Sequence record: OZ346160.1
DNA: 51,691 nt
Direction: 5' to 3' (one strand)
From: a phage
The notes beneath the pieces were generated by a model that worked only from the letters and a program-made list of their open reading frames with translations, ran no database searches and was not told the origin of the DNA. The position numbers were made by a program, and so were the translations under genes. This document shows positions 26,703 through 42,788 of this stretch, piece after piece. Position 1 is the stretch's first letter. Each line of letters begins with the position of its first letter.

Positions 26703-27632
26703 TTATAGTAGTGATTCGGGCTTGTAGAGTTTTCTTTCTACGCCCTGTTTAAAATTATCGTCAACAGGCATCATTATGTCAAGACCTCTTTCCTCTGCCG
26801 CGATTATCACATCACGATCATCTTTCCGGCAGACTACTCGCATTCTTCTTTCTCCTTTATATCTATGCGCAACCATTTCAAGATTTGAAGGAGTAAAGCA
26901 AGCCCACACCTCTTGACCAGTTGATAAATGAACATGCTGGGAATCAACCCAATCAAGGCACAAATAGATCGTCTTATCTGTGCTACCTGTTTTAACAACA
27001 GATCCGCGCGTGTAGTCGCGAGCTAAAAACCAATCCTTTCCATCCTCATCAATGAAAAGCACGTTACACATTTCATCATCAAGCCCGTCATCATGCACCA
27101 AGTGACAAGGTAGCGCGTGAATGTATCGACCATCCTTGACGCCGCAATCATAATGACAACCTTCCGTCGGATATATCCCCTCATAAACGCTTAAAGGTGT
27201 GCGATCGAATTTTAATGTTTTTGCCATCACTTTTTCGCAGCATTCATGACTTGCCTGTTTCCCGAACGAGTAACCAGAAGAACGCGAAGCGCGTTTGTTT
27301 GCTCTGATCCTGTAATCCTGCGGCACTTTTCCGAGGAAGCGACCCAAAATATTGATGGCCTCGCTGTAAGGTTCGCCAGTTAATTTCATTAACCAACCGA
27401 TCCCCGTGTCGTTACCGCATACGTTGCAGATAGCGCCGCCGTCGCCCTCTTCATTTAGCTTATCAGTCCATCTAAAACGATCCTTGCCGCCGCAGTGTGG
27501 GCAAGGCTGATGCTTTTTGTTGAAAACATCGCTATGCAGTCCGCAAATGCTTTGTAGTGCTTCACGCCATAACCCCTTCATATATGGCAAAACATCTTCT
27601 TTCTGATAGGTCATAAAGTTTTCAGTATTCAT
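26703..27632 (-). CDS. DNA primase (zinc-finger type)
   Basis: Start MNTENF with GAGG RBS; Cys4 zinc motif CPHCGG..CNVCG near N-terminus; terminators on both sides; upstream of helicase region. Confidence 0.55.
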   Translation of the reverse strand: MNTENFMTYQKEDVLPYMKGLWREALQSICGLHSDVFNKKHQPCPHCGGKDRFRWTDKLNEEGDGGAICNVCGNDTGIGWLMKLTGEPYSEAINILGRFLGKVPQDYRIRANKRASRSSGYSFGKQASHECCEKVMAKTLKFDRTPLSVYEGIYPTEGCHYDCGVKDGRYIHALPCHLVHDDGLDDEMCNVLFIDEDGKDWFLARDYTRGSVVKTGSTDKTIYLCLDWVDSQHVHLSTGQEVWACFTPSNLEMVAHRYKGERRMRVVCRKDDRDVIIAAEERGLDIMMPVDDNFKQGVERKLYKPESLL

Positions 27633-27644
27633 GGCAAACCTCAA

Positions 27645-27680
27645 TAAAAAAGCCCAGCAAATATTATCATTTCGCTGGGC
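27645..27680 (-). terminator. terminator/attenuator between HTH gene and primase
   Basis: On - strand GCCCAGC-(15-nt loop)-GCTGGGC followed by TTTTTTATT. Confidence 0.45.
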
Positions 27681-27687
27681 CTTATCA

Positions 27688-28164
27688 TTAGCTATTCGTG
27701 CTGTTATCACCTTTGTAGAATCGTCCGCCTGGTTCGTAGTCTGAATTTTTGACTACGCGCAACATTTCGTATTTGTCGCAACGGGTAGTAAGAGGCTTGC
27801 CGTTAGAATCAAACCGCAGATCTGGACGACAAAACGAGGCGCGGTATCCTTTGCATCCATTATATTTGTAGTCGTTATGCACCTTTTGTGCTCCAGCGGC
27901 TGAAATCATACCACGCTTTCGCCACTGGTTAACGACTTGCTGAGATACGCGCAGACGTCGAGCCATAGCAGGAACACCGCCGTAATACTCGATCAGAATG
28001 TCAAGGCGAGATTTTAGGCTTGCTTTTACCTCATCTCGCAGGATAAGAAATCCGGTTCGGTGTTTTCGTGGCTTTTTGTCTTTACCTCGTCGCGTTCCGT
28101 TGTTACCGTTAATAGTGCGCTTGTCGATCTCACCCGTAGATACTGCAATTCGTGCATCTTTCAT
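27688..28164 (-). CDS. HTH DNA-binding protein (putative transcriptional regulator)
   Basis: 158 aa; HTH-like segment GGVPAMARRLRVSQQVVNQWRKRG; basic N-terminus; divergent from helicase gene. Confidence 0.45.
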   Translation of the reverse strand: MKDARIAVSTGEIDKRTINGNNGTRRGKDKKPRKHRTGFLILRDEVKASLKSRLDILIEYYGGVPAMARRLRVSQQVVNQWRKRGMISAAGAQKVHNDYKYNGCKGYRASFCRPDLRFDSNGKPLTTRCDKYEMLRVVKNSDYEPGGRFYKGDNSTNS

Positions 28165-28251: not shown

Positions 28252-30249
28252 ATGATTCCAAATATCGAAAAACAAATATCAGCGTTAGGCGAGGCAGTAA
28301 TAAAAAGCATCCAAGAGCGATTCACGGTTGGCAATATAGTGCCTTATCCTTATCAGTGCGTTGCGTATGCCGAGATCGCAAAGCGCATGAAAAACTATGA
28401 GCATCCTTTCTTCGTTAAGGCTTCTGTGTCGGCTGGCAAAACTTTGATGTTTGCGATGGTTGCTGCGCAATGCCGCAAAATGGGATTGAAAATGATGGTA
28501 CTTGCTCGCCAAGCTGAAATTGTTGATCAGGATTCGGAAGAGATCAGCAATCTTGGCGTGCCAAACTCAATCTATTGCGCCGGACTGAAAACAAAAAGCG
28601 CATACTTTCCGATCGTAGTCGGTTCTGAGGGCACTGTAGTAAACGGATTGTTTAAGTCGTTAGGTGATTATGTTCCGCACGTTATCGGTATTGATGAATG
28701 TCACCAGGTGGATTGGGAGGATCTCGCTGATGCGATAGAAAATAATGAATCTTACCAGCAGATGACCACTAAGAAGGATTTGCCTGTACTGATTGGAGAA
28801 GAACAGCAATTTGATTCCAATGGCGATCCAATGTTCGGAACAGGGCGCACACAGTACACCGTAATAATCATGGAAATGATGCGCAGGTGTCGCGAGGCAT
28901 ACGGGCACGAATTGCGAATATTCGGTATGACTGGATCTGAGTTTCGCGGCGTGGTTCCAATACTGGTTGAAGATAAGAACAAAAAGGGATTCTGGCGTGA
29001 GCAGGTGACTAACATAGACACAAACTACTTAATCAAATTCGGTTCGGTAGTGCCAACAAATTTCGGCGACGTAGGCGAGCTGGGGTATGACCTTTCAGAG
29101 TTCGAAGCCAGTAGCGAGGATGGCGTTTCAGACTTTGACGCTAAAACATTGCGCAAGATGGAAGAAAAAATCCATCAAGACGCAACAATGACACAGAAAA
29201 TCATGGCTAAAGTCCATGAGATATGCAAAGACAGGAACGGAGTTTTAGTTACATGCGCAGGGGAAAGACACTGCAAGGAGGCCGCCGCCGCACTGCCGCC
29301 AAGCGTTGAATACAGGATCATAACTGGCAAGACTGGAGATAATCAGCGTAAAGAGTGGCTGAGGGAGGCATACGAGGGAAAAGTAAAATACATCTTCCAG
29401 GTACAGGCGCTTACCACTGGCGTTAACGTTCCGTTTTGGGATACTTCTGTAATACTGAGAAAGATAGGATCTCTAACATTGCTTATCCAGCTTTTGGGGC
29501 GCGGTATGCGACTGCTTAAGCAATGGCACATTGAGCAGGGATTCAAGAAAAAAGACCATCTTGTATTGGATTTTGCCGGTACTATGGATGAGTTAGGGGA
29601 TTTGTATTTCGATCCAATCCTTGAGCAAGCGCAATTCCAAAAGAGATTTACAAACGGGAAAGAGCCTAAGACTTGTCCGATATGTGGAACGCTAAACAGC
29701 TTTTACGCTCGCCGATGTATGCACGTAGACGATAACGGGAAGAGATGCGAGCATTTTTGGACTTACAGAATTTGCGAGGACCAGGTAGATCCGAGAACGA
29801 AAAAGATAATCAAGCGCGGTTGCGGAACAAAAAACGACGTAGTGGCGAGAGTATGCCGTTGTTGCGATATTTCTCTTGTCGATCCTAACGAGAAGTTAAG
29901 CGGCAAGCACTACACCAAAAACGATTGGTGCAACGTTAAATCTTTCCGCGTTGATATGACGAAAAACCAGAAAGGAATTGTTTTTTGCTATGAGCTTGAG
30001 GCCAACGGCGACACGTTCAAGGCATACGAAAGATTTTTCCCTGAGTCAGAAAGCAACATTTGCCGGACGATATGGAGAAAAATAGCATTGCAGCACATAC
30101 CGGATCGCAAGATTGCTGGTATGGTGGCGAGCTATAGAAATGCGCGTAAAATAATGTCATACGCTCATCACATCATGCCTCCTGTACGCGTAACGCATCG
30201 CAAAAACGGCAAAGGTGAGGATAACATTGCAAAACGGGAGTTTGTTTAA
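28252..30249 (+). CDS. superfamily-2 DNA helicase with C-terminal zinc-ribbon region
   Basis: 665 aa; Walker A SVSAGKT; DECH box (GIDECHQ); motif VI-like LLGRGMR; C-terminal CPICG..C and CRCCD clusters. Confidence 0.75.
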   Translation: MIPNIEKQISALGEAVIKSIQERFTVGNIVPYPYQCVAYAEIAKRMKNYEHPFFVKASVSAGKTLMFAMVAAQCRKMGLKMMVLARQAEIVDQDSEEISNLGVPNSIYCAGLKTKSAYFPIVVGSEGTVVNGLFKSLGDYVPHVIGIDECHQVDWEDLADAIENNESYQQMTTKKDLPVLIGEEQQFDSNGDPMFGTGRTQYTVIIMEMMRRCREAYGHELRIFGMTGSEFRGVVPILVEDKNKKGFWREQVTNIDTNYLIKFGSVVPTNFGDVGELGYDLSEFEASSEDGVSDFDAKTLRKMEEKIHQDATMTQKIMAKVHEICKDRNGVLVTCAGERHCKEAAAALPPSVEYRIITGKTGDNQRKEWLREAYEGKVKYIFQVQALTTGVNVPFWDTSVILRKIGSLTLLIQLLGRGMRLLKQWHIEQGFKKKDHLVLDFAGTMDELGDLYFDPILEQAQFQKRFTNGKEPKTCPICGTLNSFYARRCMHVDDNGKRCEHFWTYRICEDQVDPRTKKIIKRGCGTKNDVVARVCRCCDISLVDPNEKLSGKHYTKNDWCNVKSFRVDMTKNQKGIVFCYELEANGDTFKAYERFFPESESNICRTIWRKIALQHIPDRKIAGMVASYRNARKIMSYAHHIMPPVRVTHRKNGKGEDNIAKREFV

Positions 30250-30668
30250 TGGCTATAACTGATAAAGGAGATTATCTTGAGTTTTACGAAAGGGATCCAA
30301 CCGACACGAGAAGGGAAGTTAATCACCAGATAGATAGTTTTCAGTGGTTGACTTATGCTCATCCTTATTTGCTGGCGTGGCATACGGTAAACGAGAATGA
30401 GAAGTCTAAAGCAACGGCGATGATTGATCAGCAGTCCGGCTTGGTTAAGGGAGTAAGCGATTTCATCATCCTGATTGGTTTAAACGGAAAATACCCCTTT
30501 GCAGCGATTGAGATCAAACGAGTGAATAAATCAGGCAAGGGGAAAGCATCACCAGTCAGCGATGAACAAAAGGCTTTTTTGCGTCGCGTTCGCAGCTTAG
30601 GAGGATTCGCTGCGGTAGCCTACGGATTCAATCAGTTTAAGTTGGCTATTGAATACATGCTTAAATAG
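30249..30668 (+). CDS. VRR-NUC family nuclease
   Basis: 139 aa; PD-(D/E)xK signature GVSDFIIL..AIEIKR; start overlaps helicase stop (TAATG). Confidence 0.55.
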   Translation: MAITDKGDYLEFYERDPTDTRREVNHQIDSFQWLTYAHPYLLAWHTVNENEKSKATAMIDQQSGLVKGVSDFIILIGLNGKYPFAAIEIKRVNKSGKGKASPVSDEQKAFLRRVRSLGGFAAVAYGFNQFKLAIEYMLK

Positions 30669-34952: not shown

Positions 34953-34997
34953 AATATACCCGACACTAGGCCGGGCGTTTTAACAAAAAATGCTATT
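34953..34997 (-). promoter_or_regulatory. cassette copy (near-identical inverted copy of 31735..31779)
   Basis: Reverse-complement AATAGCATTTTTTGTTAAAACGCCCGGCCTAGTGTCGGGTATATT. Confidence 0.55.
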
Positions 34998-35113
34998 CCA
35001 TACGCTTTACCGTAACCAGTAATACACCATCATCATTGCATAAAACATGTTCAGTGGTGCTAAAAGCGCGCATATCTGAATAAAGTAGCGTAAGTAAAGC
35101 ATGAATAAAATCC

Positions 35114-35509
35114 TCATGTGATATTGAATTTACGGCGCAGTGCTTCAAGATCTTGTCTATTAGCTTTTGCCTGGAACAATTCATCATCGCCCATCTCCCC
35201 TATTCTCGCCATATCCCTGATCCAGTCGTTGCGCATACCATCCAGGCTATACAATTCGAATCCGAAAGGCCGCTTTGACGATCCTTTGGACCAGTATTTT
35301 CCGCAGACCCCATCTATATAACCAGCCGTCATCATTCTTGCGCAAAATTCCTTAGATGCAAGGCTGGCGAACATTCGCGGCGTAAGTCCGGCGGCCCGTG
35401 CGAGCCGCTCGCATTCTCTATGCTGATAGATAAATTTGGCTATGTGCTGCCTGTTAAACCAGTCGTATGACTCACACCATTTATACAGATCAAGCAAAAA
35501 CATAATCAT
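35114..35509 (-). CDS. hypothetical protein
   Basis: 131 aa, translationally coupled (ATGA) to upstream NTPase gene. Confidence 0.45.
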   Translation of the reverse strand: MIMFLLDLYKWCESYDWFNRQHIAKFIYQHRECERLARAAGLTPRMFASLASKEFCARMMTAGYIDGVCGKYWSKGSSKRPFGFELYSLDGMRNDWIRDMARIGEMGDDELFQAKANRQDLEALRRKFNIT

Positions 35510-37086
35510 CCCAGCAGTATTGGATTGACAAAAATAACACCATTAATAACACAAACATAATTTCTTTCTTCCAGCATTGGCAGCAAGTGCCCTTCTATCC
35601 TCTTCATTACTCCAGCCTGACCAACGAAAGGTTTTACCTTTCTCGCTGATTCGTACAGGGCGCGGATATTCAGAATCCCTTTATTAGCCTTGCCGTGTCT
35701 AGTGATCAATTCAATCAATTTACCCATTTCAGCATCATCACCAGCATAACCAGAAGCATTGGCGGCGCTAATGTATGTTTTGCTCAATTCCTGAAACATG
35801 ATCAGCGCCTCTTGCATTGTTTCCACGTCGATCTCTTTCGACTTCTGCGGGTATCCGGCAGGATTAAACCAGTTGCGGATAACATGCAGGACGGAAGCAA
35901 GCCTGATCACCTGTTTATCCATTTTACCCAGCGCACCGCGTAACATTGTATGAGAATACTTTCCGCCGTCTGCAAGATGCGGTTCCATATCCTGGCGAGC
36001 AATGTTGAGCACTCGCATAGCTGAACGGCTTATTTTCAGCGATATATTTGATTCGCTCATGATGTTATGCACCAATTGATAATATTGGGCCTTCAATTCA
36101 GGATCCACTGCCTCATAGGTAGAATCACCATTTTCATCAATGAATGAGCGACGGCCTAAGAATGATTCCTCACGGACCAACAAAAAGCGCTCACTCACAC
36201 CGATACCGCGCGATCCAGCGTCCATGATTCCGCTTATCGTTTCATCCTGGGCTATAACGCTCATACATCCAAGTGCGCGAAAACTCATGTTATTGTCAGC
36301 ATTAGCACGGGCAATTGATACGTGACCATTATCCCACGCCTTAAGCACTAGCTCACTGTTAGTCTTCCTTTCGCTATTGGCATAGGTCAAGCCTAACAGA
36401 CTGTTAATACTTGTTGCTTCGTCAGATATTACGGCAAAGTTACCTTGCTTGTTGTTGATTTTTGCCAAGCCTTCTGGAGTTGTATCTGAAACAGGGAAAG
36501 TTATATCACACATCTTTTCCAGCTTCTCCTCCAGATCCTCTTTTTCCTGGTATAGAGATTCCATATCAGCGCCTGATCTTTCGCTTTTCATCTCCTTTGC
36601 AAGACCTGCCAACTTTGCCTGTATTTTCTTTCTTTCCTTGCGGCGTTGCTCGTTGATCTTCTCAACTTCCGCAATCATCGGAGCAATAGCCATACTATTG
36701 ATCGCAGATTTACCAGTTGACGGCGGCTGGCTTGTAACGACGTAAAGCGCAGTCGGCTGATCGGTCCCGTGATAGTCAACCGTAAAGCGTCCAAGCATAG
36801 CGGCAGAAATGCAGCCGATAAAGTGCATGTAAGCCGATGATTCAGGGAATTGAACGGATCGCGCAATACTTCGTGATAACTTTCCGACAACATCAATATC
36901 ATTACCAAGAGAAATGACGGGGTAGCGATCGTGACCGCTATTTACATCCTTTACGTCGCCCCAAAAGCTGGACGACTGGCGATAGCCGTTAGCCTGAATT
37001 GATACGCGAACTGGCGAAAGGTTCTGGCTTTCAGCCATAGCGATTATTTGCTGTGGAGTTAATTTGTTCGTTTCTAATGAAAACAT
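35506..37086 (-). CDS. P-loop NTPase of unknown function (DUF3987-like)
   Basis: 526 aa; Walker A-like QPPSTGKS; AGGAG RBS; own cassette upstream. Confidence 0.55.
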   Translation of the reverse strand: MFSLETNKLTPQQIIAMAESQNLSPVRVSIQANGYRQSSSFWGDVKDVNSGHDRYPVISLGNDIDVVGKLSRSIARSVQFPESSAYMHFIGCISAAMLGRFTVDYHGTDQPTALYVVTSQPPSTGKSAINSMAIAPMIAEVEKINEQRRKERKKIQAKLAGLAKEMKSERSGADMESLYQEKEDLEEKLEKMCDITFPVSDTTPEGLAKINNKQGNFAVISDEATSINSLLGLTYANSERKTNSELVLKAWDNGHVSIARANADNNMSFRALGCMSVIAQDETISGIMDAGSRGIGVSERFLLVREESFLGRRSFIDENGDSTYEAVDPELKAQYYQLVHNIMSESNISLKISRSAMRVLNIARQDMEPHLADGGKYSHTMLRGALGKMDKQVIRLASVLHVIRNWFNPAGYPQKSKEIDVETMQEALIMFQELSKTYISAANASGYAGDDAEMGKLIELITRHGKANKGILNIRALYESARKVKPFVGQAGVMKRIEGHLLPMLEERNYVCVINGVIFVNPILLG

Positions 37087-37114
37087 TCGTTAGCTTCTCC
37101 TTTGTGGGCCGTAA

Positions 37115-37159
37115 ATTTTAACGGCCCAATACTACCCCGTTTTGTCAAAAAGTGCTATT
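37115..37159 (-). promoter_or_regulatory. cassette copy (TTGACA variant) upstream of P-loop NTPase gene
   Basis: AATAGCACTTTTTGACAAAAC; hairpin GGGCCG..CGGCCC; TAAAAT at positions 40-45. Confidence 0.5.
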
Positions 37160-37376
37160 TGATCCGCTCTATTGCAACCAGAAGTCGATCAGGCTGGCGG
37201 TCGCTGTAGCATTCTCCTGTAATCCCATCCTTAAACGTAAAGTAAAGCGCCTTATGATATGAAAAACCAATCAGCCAACCTACCGCCGTTTTTTTGATGG
37301 GCCTGACTATATCGCCAGGCTTGAAAGTCTTTGTGGTAGAATGCGTTACTTTGTAACGGTTTTCACTGTTTATCAC
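37155..37376 (-). CDS. hypothetical protein
   Basis: 73-aa ORF coupled to upstream gene; stop inside cassette motif. Confidence 0.45.
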   Translation of the reverse strand: MINSENRYKVTHSTTKTFKPGDIVRPIKKTAVGWLIGFSYHKALYFTFKDGITGECYSDRQPDRLLVAIERIK

Positions 37377-42221: not shown

Positions 42222-42251
42222 TGACGGTTATCGCCAGGATTGCGATCGAAA

Positions 42252-42339
42252 TAATCAAAAGCAATCATTCGTAATCAAATCACGTCAAAATGATGATTGC
42301 CTTTGCAAATTTGATGAGAAAAGTAATCACGCTTAATCA
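42252..42339. repeat. TAATCA iteron array with 10-bp periodicity
   Basis: TAATCA/CAATCA at 42252, 42262, 42272, inverted TGATTG at 42294, TAATCA at 42324 and 42334. Confidence 0.45.
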
Positions 42340-42499
42340 TTGGTTGCAGGGGAGATAGTGAAACCCTCCCCTCTTGCCTCACTTTTCCGCCTGGCTGTCA
42401 GTGGTTGTTATGTTACGTTCCCGCGTGTTCTTTTGTTGACCTTCCGCAAAATACGATAACAAAAAATAACAAACAATACCTATATAATACATTGAAAAA

Positions 42500-42770
42500 T
42501 AAGGATTATTTATTTATATGTATCTATATATTCTCTTTTGTTATCTTGGTTATTGTGGTATTTGGTGGGGGTATATAGTTTTTGTGTATCTATATGTGTG
42601 TATGGGTATGTAGGGGCATATATATCTATATGGCACTTTCCGCGAGAAAACTTCGATAACAAGCAATGATAACATTGATTTATAAGGAAAAATAACGCCC
42701 ATATTGTTATTGTGCCACCATATAAAATTGATAAAACACGCGGGAACAAGAAAAAACAGTTGACACATTA
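42500..42770. repeat. AT/TG-rich regulatory region, paralogue B
   Basis: Diverged direct repeat of 21490..21700; internal direct repeat TTCCGC..GATAACAA (about 42450..42680). Confidence 0.5.
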
Positions 42771-42788
42771 AATAGCATTATTGATAAT
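42760..42788 (+). promoter_or_regulatory. sigma70 promoter (start of + strand small-gene array)
   Basis: TTGACA (42760..42765) - 17 nt - GATAAT (42783..42788); AGGAGG RBS and ATG 42817 follow. Confidence 0.6.

What the first reader, a model, noticed from the sequence alone, without database searches (positions are those of the whole stretch)
35506..37086. Large P-loop NTPase of unknown function under its own cassette
The 526-aa protein has a Walker A-like QPPSTGKS but no recognisable helicase motif series. It is the largest gene in the - strand array, translationally coupled to a 131-aa ORF, and driven by the TTGACA-variant cassette. Candidates are a replication initiator or loader, or an anti-defence ATPase.
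Basis: partly seen in the sequence, partly recalled or inferred. Interest (0 to 1): 0.5.

Follow-up and report, generated by a model that had tools for sequence, protein, structure and literature searches.

The report
T1-like phage MCM-fold (DUF3987) helicase
The 526-residue protein is the DUF3987-family, MCM-like ring-helicase ATPase that every T1-like phage carries, most likely to unwind its DNA during replication; it is already annotated as a helicase in hundreds of phage genomes, so the finding is real but ordinary.

The parts
35506..37086 (-). Gene for the 526-aa DUF3987-family AAA+ (MCM-fold, SF6-type) helicase, including its stop codon
36796..37086 (-). N-terminal helical region (aa 1-97). 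Residues 1-60 are specific to this lineage and occupy the position where relatives carry fused primase, PriCT or DnaB-N modules
   Evidence: AF2 helices 11-41 and 66-97; lowest conservation of any region; homology in fused relatives starts at about residue 60-70
36706..36729 (-). Deviant Walker A / P-loop, Q120-PPSTGKS-127 (K126 invariant)
   Evidence: Invariant in A1; K126 invariant in the 40-sequence A2 alignment; follows predicted strand 115-119
36502..36705 (-). Long antiparallel helical hairpin (aa 128-195) that extends the helix after the P-loop; a family-wide insertion
   Evidence: AF2 helices 126-168 and 172-191; Walker A Lys to Walker B Glu distance is 82-106 aa in all 40 diverse members; sequence-variable, 14 K/R and 15 D/E; it causes spurious coiled-coil hits
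36418..36438 (-). Walker B strand and acidic pair, F217-AVISDE-223 (E223 invariant; D222 is Ala in some members)
   Evidence: predicted strand 217-221
36271..36330 (-). Predicted beta-hairpin before strand 4 (aa 253-272) with invariant R260; candidate pre-sensor-1 DNA-contacting hairpin (inferred)
   Evidence: AF2 strands 255-258 and 267-270; R260 invariant in A2
36241..36270 (-). Strand 4 and sensor-1 region, G273-CMSVIAQDE-282 (A279 and Q280 in >=90% of sequences)
   Evidence: the sensor-1 assignment is inferred from topology
36184..36201 (-). G296-VSERF-301: invariant G296 and R300 immediately before strand 5. This is the topological position of the MCM 'SRF' arginine finger (inferred)
35872..36102 (-). 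Alpha-helical lid domain (aa 329-405) with R383-GxxGK388; K388 invariant, candidate sensor 2
35509..35826 (-). C-terminal helical bundle plus winged-helix domain (aa 421-526)
35114..35509 (-). 131-aa ORF overlapping the helicase stop (ATGA); a winged-helix protein restricted to T1-like phages; function unknown, possibly a DNA-binding or adaptor partner
34993..35187 (-). 64-aa ORF, the last gene of the same cassette-to-cassette unit; overlaps the 131-aa ORF by 74 nt
   Evidence: (PHROG 9539, E=1.6e-25); a similar overlap occurs in L004
37087..37161 (-). Upstream cassette: box aaATAGCACTTTTTGACAAAA (37140-37160; TTGACA 37143-37148; its TAG 37155-37157 is the stop codon of the upstream 73-aa ORF), hairpin GGGCCGT/ACGGCCC (37121-37127 / 37106-37112), -10-like TAAAAT (37115-37120) and SD AAGGAG (37097-37102)
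   Evidence: the repeat family was described for phage TLS/T1 in PMC11447400
26703..27710 (-). Inferred working partner: a primase with a T7-gp4-type zinc ribbon that matches only the primase half of a primase-helicase profile
   Evidence: Pfam Zn_Ribbon_Prim E=4.8e-15; PHROG 510 positions 6-316 of 667; the functional link is inferred from fusions and neighbourhoods of homologues

Best explanation
The gene encodes the phage's own ring-forming AAA+ helicase of the DUF3987 family, which has an MCM-like fold (helicase superfamily 6). It is transcribed early from the leftward array. I propose that it assembles into a hexamer whose ATP sites lie between subunits. The P-loop K126 and Walker B E223 would come from one subunit and R300 from its neighbour. 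ATP hydrolysis would drive a beta-hairpin carrying R260 along single-stranded DNA in the central channel, unwinding the phage duplex at the fork. The phage encodes a T7-type primase without a helicase domain, an SSB and recombination proteins, but no DNA polymerase. The helicase is therefore inferred to be the organising core of a hybrid replisome: phage helicase and primase plus host Pol III holoenzyme. The C-terminal winged helix, the lineage-specific N-terminal domain and the long helical hairpin after Walker A are candidate surfaces for DNA or origin binding and for docking the primase. Shown here: family membership, fold, motif conservation, genomic associations. Shown elsewhere for a family member: ATP-dependent 5'->3' unwinding and primase binding. 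Inferred: hexamer formation, the roles of individual residues, the replicative role in T1-like phages, polarity and partners.
Against: No T1-family member has been tested biochemically or genetically in any paper I could find. The gene lies about 5-13 kb from the primase, SF2 helicase, SSB and recombination genes, among small early ORFs of unknown function. The T1/TLS literature names the SF2 protein as 'the' helicase and does not discuss this gene. Walker A is deviant (Q in place of the first G), and the Walker B Asp is Ala in some members. I could not reproduce the MCM link at sequence level: there is no PF00493 hit in any of 40 members, no PDB hit with the family profile, and hhalign against a verified SsoMCM core gave probability <=1.6%. 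Hexamer formation, polarity and partner contacts were not tested. Residue roles are assigned from predicted topology, not from a residue-level superposition.
Confidence: 0.75

Rival explanations
1. Initiator-helicase. The protein is not only the fork helicase but also the origin-recognition and self-loading factor, like the SaPI Rep, SCCmec Cch, P4 alpha or papillomavirus E1 proteins. It would bind a phage origin through its C-terminal winged helix, possibly with the co-translated 131-aa winged-helix protein as specificity subunit. It would then melt the DNA and assemble around it without a separate loader. This refines the best explanation rather than excluding it.
Against: No origin has been mapped, and no iterons flank the gene itself. 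WH domains also mediate protein contacts, as the MCM WH does. The 131-aa partner is missing next to distant homologues, so it is not part of the core mechanism. T1-like phages encode Erf, a RecE-like exonuclease and SSB, so recombination-dependent initiation without an origin binder is possible. AgaPH unwound tailed and forked substrates but not blunt DNA.
Confidence: 0.3
2. Accessory translocase. Host DnaB or the phage SF2 helicase is the main fork helicase, and the DUF3987 protein acts in fork restart, recombination-dependent replication, concatemer processing or repair.
Against: Fusions are to primase modules and to the DnaB N-terminal (primase-binding) domain, not to recombination domains. 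A primase gene is immediately adjacent in L003. The phage primase lacks the helicase half that T7-type primases normally use. The family member N4 dns is reported to be essential for replication. SF2 plus VRR-NUC is a more typical repair and remodelling pair.
Confidence: 0.15
3. Helicase loader or hijacker. The ATPase does not unwind DNA itself but recruits or loads host DnaB onto phage DNA, as lambda P or DnaC do.
For: It is an AAA+ ATPase in a phage that depends on the host polymerase.
Against: There is no similarity to the DnaC/IstB, lambda P or gp59 families in Pfam, PHROG or NCBIfam. The fold matches the MCM/PS-II-insert clade, not the DnaA/DnaC initiator clade. A family member unwinds DNA by itself. 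A predicted pore-type beta-hairpin with an invariant Arg is present.
Confidence: 0.04
4. Anti-defence ATPase that counteracts a host immune system rather than acting in replication.
For: The gene lies in an early array of small, poorly conserved ORFs, the kind of region where anti-defence genes are often found. FritzSarasin-type phages are unusually resistant to RM systems, which the authors attribute to methyltransferases (PMC8594841).
Against: It is a core gene across Drexlerviridae and beyond: 926 records and 2,593 clusters at 50% identity. It has conserved catalytic motifs and replication-module synteny. There is no defence-related hit in PADLOC apart from a coiled-coil artefact at E=0.012. 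Papers on Drexlerviridae-defence interactions do not implicate it.
Confidence: 0.02

Closest known systems
AgaPH, the PriCT-DUF3987 helicase of a Seonamhaeicola mobile element (NAR 2025, PMC11724360)
   Same: Same Pfam family (DUF3987), with conserved Walker A and B motifs. PriCT-2-DUF3987 fusions of that architecture are direct homologues of the window protein (P0224, E=1.5e-37). Both are associated with a primase and both have a small C-terminal domain.
   Different: AgaPH has an N-terminal PriCT domain and partners an AEP primase-polymerase on an integrative element. The phage protein has a different small helical N-terminus, and the genome's primase is DnaG/T7-gp4-type and unlinked. AgaPH's activities (oligomer, 5'->3' unwinding, ATP/dATP use) are measured; none has been measured here.
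Phage N4 dns protein and other phage DUF3987 proteins classed as SF6 replicative helicases (Kazlauskas et al. 2016, PMC4889955)
   Same: Same family and the same predicted role and layout (AAA+ core plus C-terminal wHTH). The association with DnaG or AEP primases is reproduced here in fusions and neighbourhoods.
   Different: N4 dns carries a C-terminal AEP primase domain, whereas the T1-like protein is a stand-alone helicase module. Essentiality is reported for N4 dns only.
Archaeal and eukaryotic MCM (Pfam PF00493, SF6)
   Different: No sequence-level membership. There is no N-terminal OB-fold/zinc collar domain, because the N-terminus is a small helical region. A roughly 65-residue helical hairpin follows the Walker A helix, which MCM lacks. 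No helix-2 insert is evident in the short helix 204-214. MCM runs 3'->5', whereas the one tested DUF3987 protein runs 5'->3'.
Staphylococcal self-loading helicases Cch (DUF927) and SaPI Rep/PriRep (PMC9371898); Bacillus cereus prophage BcMCM (PMC2715239)
   Different: They belong to different families (DUF927; SF3 for Rep1 and PriRep5). They have measured 3'->5' polarity and demonstrated iteron binding and self-loading. None of this is known for the T1-like protein.
T7 gp4 / DnaB-type SF4 helicases (functional analogue only)
   Same: The proposed job is the same: a hexameric fork helicase coupled to a zinc-ribbon/TOPRIM primase. The window's primase matches the primase half of such fusions, and one homologue even carries the DnaB N-terminal domain.
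   Different: The fold is unrelated (RecA versus AAA+), and there is no DnaB_C or gp4 helicase-domain hit.

Membership tests
DUF3987 (Pfam PF13148) helicase family | Sequence matches the family HMM above the curated gathering score | tested here: met
   151.2 bits against a cut-off of 27, E=5.9e-44; residues 81-430 cover profile positions 3-350 of 364. All 40 aligned relatives also match.
DUF3987 (Pfam PF13148) helicase family | Conserved Walker A (GxxxxGK[ST] with variation) and Walker B acidic residue | tested here: met
   QPPSTGKS with K126 invariant, and ISDE with E223 invariant, in 40 diverse sequences.
DUF3987 (Pfam PF13148) helicase family | [quoted passage not shown] | tested here: met
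DUF3987 (Pfam PF13148) helicase family | Genetic association with a DnaG or AEP primase (fusion or adjacent gene) | tested here: inconclusive
   Met in homologues: fusions in P0156 and P0224 and an adjacent primase in L003. In this window the primase gene is about 8 kb away.
DUF3987 (Pfam PF13148) helicase family | ATP-dependent DNA unwinding by an oligomer | not testable with these tools
   Shown only for AgaPH (PMC11724360).
MCM family proper (Pfam PF00493) | Sequence matches the MCM HMM or solved MCM sequences | tested here: not met
   No PF00493 hit at E<=1 in any of 40 members. No PDB hit by phmmer or by the family profile. hhalign against a verified SsoMCM core gave probability <=1.6%. 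A published HHsearch link (98%) exists for another family member.
MCM family proper (Pfam PF00493) | AAA+ core of the pre-sensor-II-insert clade with a pre-sensor-1 beta-hairpin | tested here: met
MCM family proper (Pfam PF00493) | N-terminal OB-fold/zinc-binding collar domain | tested here: not met
   Residues 1-97 are predicted to be all-helical and there is no Cys/His cluster.
MCM family proper (Pfam PF00493) | Helix-2 insert | tested here: inconclusive
   Helix 204-214 between strand 2 and Walker B is short and uninterrupted in the model. No coordinates were available for a superposition.
MCM family proper (Pfam PF00493) | 3'->5' translocation polarity | not testable with these tools
   The only DUF3987 measurement is 5'->3'.
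SF1/SF2 helicases | Tandem RecA-like domains with motifs I-VI (DEAD / ResIII / Helicase_C) | tested here: not met
   No such Pfam hit for this protein. The neighbouring 665-aa protein (28252-30249) does have them.
DnaB/T7 gp4 SF4 helicases | RecA-fold DnaB_C helicase domain | tested here: not met
   No hit; the fold search returns AAA+ proteins, not RecA-fold helicases.
Helicase loaders (DnaC/IstB, lambda P, T4 gp59) | Match to a loader family profile or to the initiator-clade AAA+ fold | tested here: not met
   No hit in Pfam, PHROGs or NCBIfam. Orc and Cdc6 hits cover only about 80-100 residues of the lid and WH.
Known defence or anti-defence components | Match to a defence-system protein model | tested here: not met
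   PADLOC gave only a coiled-coil match to JetC at E=0.012. No dedicated anti-defence library was available.

The most novel reading that the evidence does not exclude
The T1-like DUF3987 protein is an MCM-fold ring helicase that works the 'bacterial' way. It would travel 5'->3' on the lagging strand, as AgaPH does, while holding a T7-type primase and recruiting E. coli Pol III. It would load itself at an origin with help from its co-translated winged-helix partner, and it would use the family-specific helical hairpin after Walker A as the docking arm. That would be an archaeal/eukaryotic-type motor with reversed polarity at the centre of a bacterial-type replisome, in a phage that is easy to manipulate genetically, from a family with no solved structure.
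Probability: 0.25. Interest if true: 0.55.

Novelty: already known. Interest (0 to 1): 0.2.

Why it matters
For genome annotation it matters little. The gene is a known core gene of T1-like phages, already labelled a helicase, and its family has a published functional prediction and one biochemical validation. The value lies in what remains open.

- No DUF3987 member has a structure that I could detect by sequence in the PDB.
- The only polarity measurement (5'->3') is opposite to every other MCM-fold helicase.
- The family-wide helical hairpin after Walker A has no assigned role.
- T1-like phages are easy E. coli models that combine this helicase with a helicase-less T7-type primase and the host polymerase.

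They would therefore be a convenient system for asking how an MCM-like motor is loaded and coupled to a bacterial replisome. The result also corrects inconsistent database labels: 'hypothetical protein', 'NADPH-flavin oxidoreductase', and 'YdbL' for the partner.

Tried and rejected
- Direct and profile sequence searches of the PDB gave no relative, only coiled-coil noise from the helical hairpin.
- NCBIfam gave no hit.
- Sequence-level link to MCM: a permissive Pfam scan of 40 members gave only DUF3987. I ran no further search on building an MCM profile, because the fold evidence was already decisive.
- Model coordinates are not exposed. I therefore could not check pore-loop geometry, the helix-2 insert or trans-acting residues, and could not model a hexamer or complexes.
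- Literature searches for defence-escape mutations in Drexlerviridae helicases, for T1 replication genetics and for host dna-gene dependence returned nothing about this gene. Three searches failed on term length.
- The anti-defence idea was rejected for lack of any PADLOC hit and because the gene is a core, replication-linked gene.
- The loader idea was rejected on fold clade and family biochemistry.
- TTGACA as a canonical -35 was rejected. The spacing to the -10-like hexamer is 22 nt in this copy and in 14 of the other 18. The spelling is fixed only within near-identical Warwickvirus genomes, and the 50%-identity relative has TTGCTA at the same place.
- The 'YdbL' label for the partner was rejected, because Pfam gives no support.
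Full report
**Observation.** It is far longer than chance allows. The longest stop-free run in 100 shuffles of the window is 258 codons, with a mean of 167. QPPSTGKS lies at residues 120-127. It is the largest ORF of the leftward array between about 34.7 and 42.1 kb. Its TGA overlaps the ATG of a 131-aa ORF as ATGA. A second ATG 2 nt after the stop is the start used by many homologues. Upstream lies a repeat cassette whose box reads ATAGCACTTTTTGACAAAA.

**What the window is.** The region is 98-99% identical to Warwickvirus phages of the family Drexlerviridae, the T1-like phages, such as Sip, atuna and FritzSarasin/Bas04. In those records the gene is labelled 'putative helicase' or 'DNA helicase'. 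A tblastn search finds it in 926 deposited phage genomes, once at 100% identity (phage Kalemo). Labels range from 'DNA helicase' and 'replicative DNA helicase' to 'hypothetical protein', plus one obviously wrong 'NADPH-flavin oxidoreductase'.

**Family.** Pfam DUF3987 (PF13148) matches at E=5.9e-44 over residues 81-430, and PHROG 2373 'DNA helicase' matches over the full length at E=3.6e-244. An exhaustive phmmer search of 1.84 billion cluster representatives found 2,593 clusters at E<=1e-3. Most are stand-alone proteins of about 520 aa. Some are 600-970 aa with the DUF3987 module at the C-terminus. In those I scanned, the N-terminal additions are a DnaG CHC2 zinc finger (P0156), a PriCT-2 domain (P0224) or the DnaB N-terminal domain (P0194). 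All three are replisome or primase modules.

**Motifs.** In 25 homologues (36-88% identity) and in 40 more diverse ones (24-71%), the conserved positions are those of an AAA+ ATPase:

- the P-loop Q120-PPSxGKS-127, with K126 invariant;
- F217-xxIS(D/A)E-223, with E223 invariant (D222 is Ala in some members);
- R260;
- A279 and Q280 at the end of the next strand;
- G296-xSER-F301, with G296 and R300 invariant;
- R383-GxxGK388, with K388 invariant.

So a helicase motif series is present.

**Structure.** An AlphaFold2 model built on the 25-sequence alignment is confident (mean pLDDT 86.5, pTM 0.84). It shows the following, in order:

- a small helical N-terminal region (residues 11-97);
- strand 115-119 leading into the P-loop;
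- a very long helix 126-168 that folds back as helix 172-191;
- the Walker B strand 217-221;
- a beta-hairpin (255-258 / 267-270) carrying R260;
- strand 273-279;
- R300 directly before strand 301-305;
- a helical lid (329-405);
- a helical bundle and a winged helix (421-526).

Two differences from MCM are clear from the model. There is no OB-fold/zinc N-terminal collar. There is a helical hairpin of about 65 residues directly after the Walker A helix. The hairpin is family-wide: the distance from the Walker A Lys to the Walker B Glu is 82-106 residues in all 40 diverse members, while the hairpin sequence is poorly conserved.

My equivalences (R300 as the arginine finger, Q280 as sensor 1, R260 as the pore hairpin, K388 as sensor 2) are inferred from conservation and predicted topology.

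**Sequence-level link to MCM.** I could not reproduce it. None of the following gave a link:

- phmmer of the protein against the PDB;
- the family profile against the PDB;
- a permissive Pfam scan of 40 members;

The relationship therefore rests on the fold searches here and on the published 98% HHsearch probability for another family member (PMC4889955). By the same sequence searches, no family member appears to have a solved structure.

**Genomic context.** In this genome the primase (26703-27710, -) has a T7-gp4-type zinc ribbon. It matches only positions 6-316 of a 667-position primase-helicase PHROG, so it is a primase without its usual helicase half. The only other helicase is an SF2 (ResIII/Helicase_C) protein followed by a VRR-NUC nuclease. 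A RecE-like exonuclease, Erf and SSB are also present. T1 and TLS are reported to lack a DNA polymerase and to use the host enzyme (PMC11447400). In distant homologues (36-39% identity) the DUF3987 gene heads a replication module:

- in L003: DUF3987, a DnaG-zinc-ribbon primase 4 bp downstream, an SF2 helicase and a RecE-like exonuclease;
- in L002: DUF3987, an SF2 helicase, an exonuclease, AAA_24 and SSB.

The window encodes counterparts of most of these partners (primase, SF2 helicase, RecE-like exonuclease, SSB), but they lie about 5-13 kb away from the gene.

**The cassette.** The box ATAGCACnnnTTGnnAAAA occurs 19 times in the window, against 0.06 expected. It is the 21-nt direct repeat already described for phage TLS, and noted for T1, Rtp and Rogue1. 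Its function is unknown; the authors suggested a stoperator, an enhancer site or an UP-like element (PMC11447400). My additional observations are these.

- Sixteen of 19 copies have a -10-like hexamer (TAnnnT or CATAAT), 15 of them exactly 22 nt after the TTGnnA and one at 21 nt. The spacer usually forms a hairpin whose sequence differs between copies.
- In 16 of 19 copies the stop codon of the upstream gene is the TAG inside the box or a TAA abutting it. The next start codon follows mostly 72-80 nt after the box start.
- The helicase copy is the only one spelling TTGACA. A 22-nt spacing is too long for a sigma-70 -35 element, and the consensus scan finds no promoter there.
- The TTGACA spelling is fixed only in near-identical Warwickvirus genomes. 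A relative at 50% identity has TTGCTA, a hairpin and TATTAT in the same arrangement.

So 'a cassette precedes the gene' is confirmed. 'The cassette is a promoter' is plausible but untested. 'TTGACA makes it special' is not supported.

**Mechanism.** The best-supported reading is that this is the phage's own hexameric AAA+ helicase, acting as the fork helicase of a hybrid replisome: phage helicase, phage primase and SSB, with host Pol III. Several points carry this inference:

- the family, fold and motifs;
- the fusions to primase-related and DnaB-N modules;
- the replication-module synteny of homologues;
- the helicase-less primase in this genome;
- the literature, which includes a family-level prediction, the reported essentiality of the N4 dns protein (PMC4889955), and direct 5'->3', Walker A/B-dependent unwinding and primase binding by AgaPH (PMC11724360).

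Confidence is 0.75. A refinement, that the protein is also a self-loading initiator using its WH and perhaps the WH partner, as SaPI Rep and Cch do (PMC9371898), is plausible at 0.3. An AT-rich repeat-bearing region at 42.2-42.8 kb is a candidate site, but nothing here tests it. An accessory recombination or restart role is less likely (0.15). A loader role (0.04) and an anti-defence role (0.02; no PADLOC hit) have essentially no support.

**Comparison with what is known.** The protein is a member of DUF3987, with all the testable defining features met. It works like MCM-type helicases and shares their fold, but it is not a member of MCM proper. It has no HMM match, no N-terminal collar and no evident helix-2 insert, and it has an extra helical hairpin. 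It is a functional analogue, not a relative, of DnaB and T7 gp4.

**Novelty and score.** The gene, its family assignment and its predicted function are all already in the literature and the databases, so I rate it 'already known' with interest 0.2. The remaining interest lies in the family's unknown structure, in the reported polarity being opposite to other MCM-fold helicases, in the unexplained helical hairpin, and in how such a motor is loaded and coupled to a bacterial polymerase. All of these could be tested in T1-like phages.

Noticed in passing
window, 19 sites: 1566, 28176, 30665, 31736, 43547, 44010, 45003, 46428, 47746, 49040 (+); 42220, 41833, 40528, 40031, 37832, 37158, 34996, 10163, 6413 (-): The T1-family 21-nt repeat (ATAGCACnnnTTGnnAAAA; published for TLS) is part of a precise inter-gene module. 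In 16/19 copies the upstream gene's stop codon is the TAG inside the box or a TAA abutting it. In 16/19 a -10-like hexamer follows TTGnnA (22 nt later in 15 copies, 21 nt in one). The spacer usually holds a hairpin of differing sequence, and the next ATG comes about 72-80 nt after the box start. The 22-nt spacing rules out TTGnnA as a normal -35. The design recalls the T4-type promoter/stem-loop (PeSL) shuffling cassettes; that comparison is from memory and was not checked.
   Followed up: partly
window 42230-42780: An AT-rich non-coding region of about 550 bp lies between the divergent early arrays. It holds three copies of TGTATCTATAT and at least four GATAACAA/TTGTTATC motifs in both orientations, plus the only canonical sigma-70 promoter match of the region (TTGACA-17-GATAAT at 42760-42788, +). 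It is a candidate origin or operator cluster.
   Followed up: partly
window 34993-35187 and 35114-35509 (-); L004 6583-6960 and 6902-7123: The 131-aa and 64-aa ORFs overlap by 74 nt in different frames, and a similar 59-nt overlap is kept in a relative whose helicase is only 50% identical. The overlapping tail of the 131-aa protein has low model confidence (pLDDT 57-70).
   Followed up: no
window 26703-27710 (-): The phage primase has a T7-gp4-type zinc ribbon and matches only the first half (positions 6-316 of 667) of a primase-helicase PHROG. It is therefore a primase that has lost, or never had, the attached SF4 helicase.
   Followed up: partly
window 28252-30249 and 30249-30668 (+): An SF2 helicase (ResIII/Helicase_C) is immediately followed by a VRR-NUC nuclease. 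The same SF2 helicase sits next to the DUF3987 gene in distant phages (L002, L003). This SF2 protein is the one the T1/TLS literature calls 'the helicase'.
   Followed up: partly
GenBank records OL539443.1, MN850620.1 and others: Annotation noise. The helicase is labelled 'NADPH-flavin oxidoreductase' in phage Brooksby. The 131-aa partner is labelled 'YdbL' in many records without any Pfam support, and a neighbouring small ORF is labelled 'phosphoglucomutase/phosphomannomutase' in the JLBYU phages.
   Followed up: no
search results: About 20 records named Campylobacter phage (host Campylobacter jejuni) carry this T1-like region at 60-80% DNA identity. That is unexpected for an enterobacterial phage lineage and may reflect mislabelled hosts or contaminating coliphages.
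   Followed up: no
window 10163 and 6413 (-): Two copies of the repeat box lie antisense to the rightward late structural genes. They have no upstream ORF and poorer -10-like hexamers. They could be antisense promoters or decayed copies.
   Followed up: no
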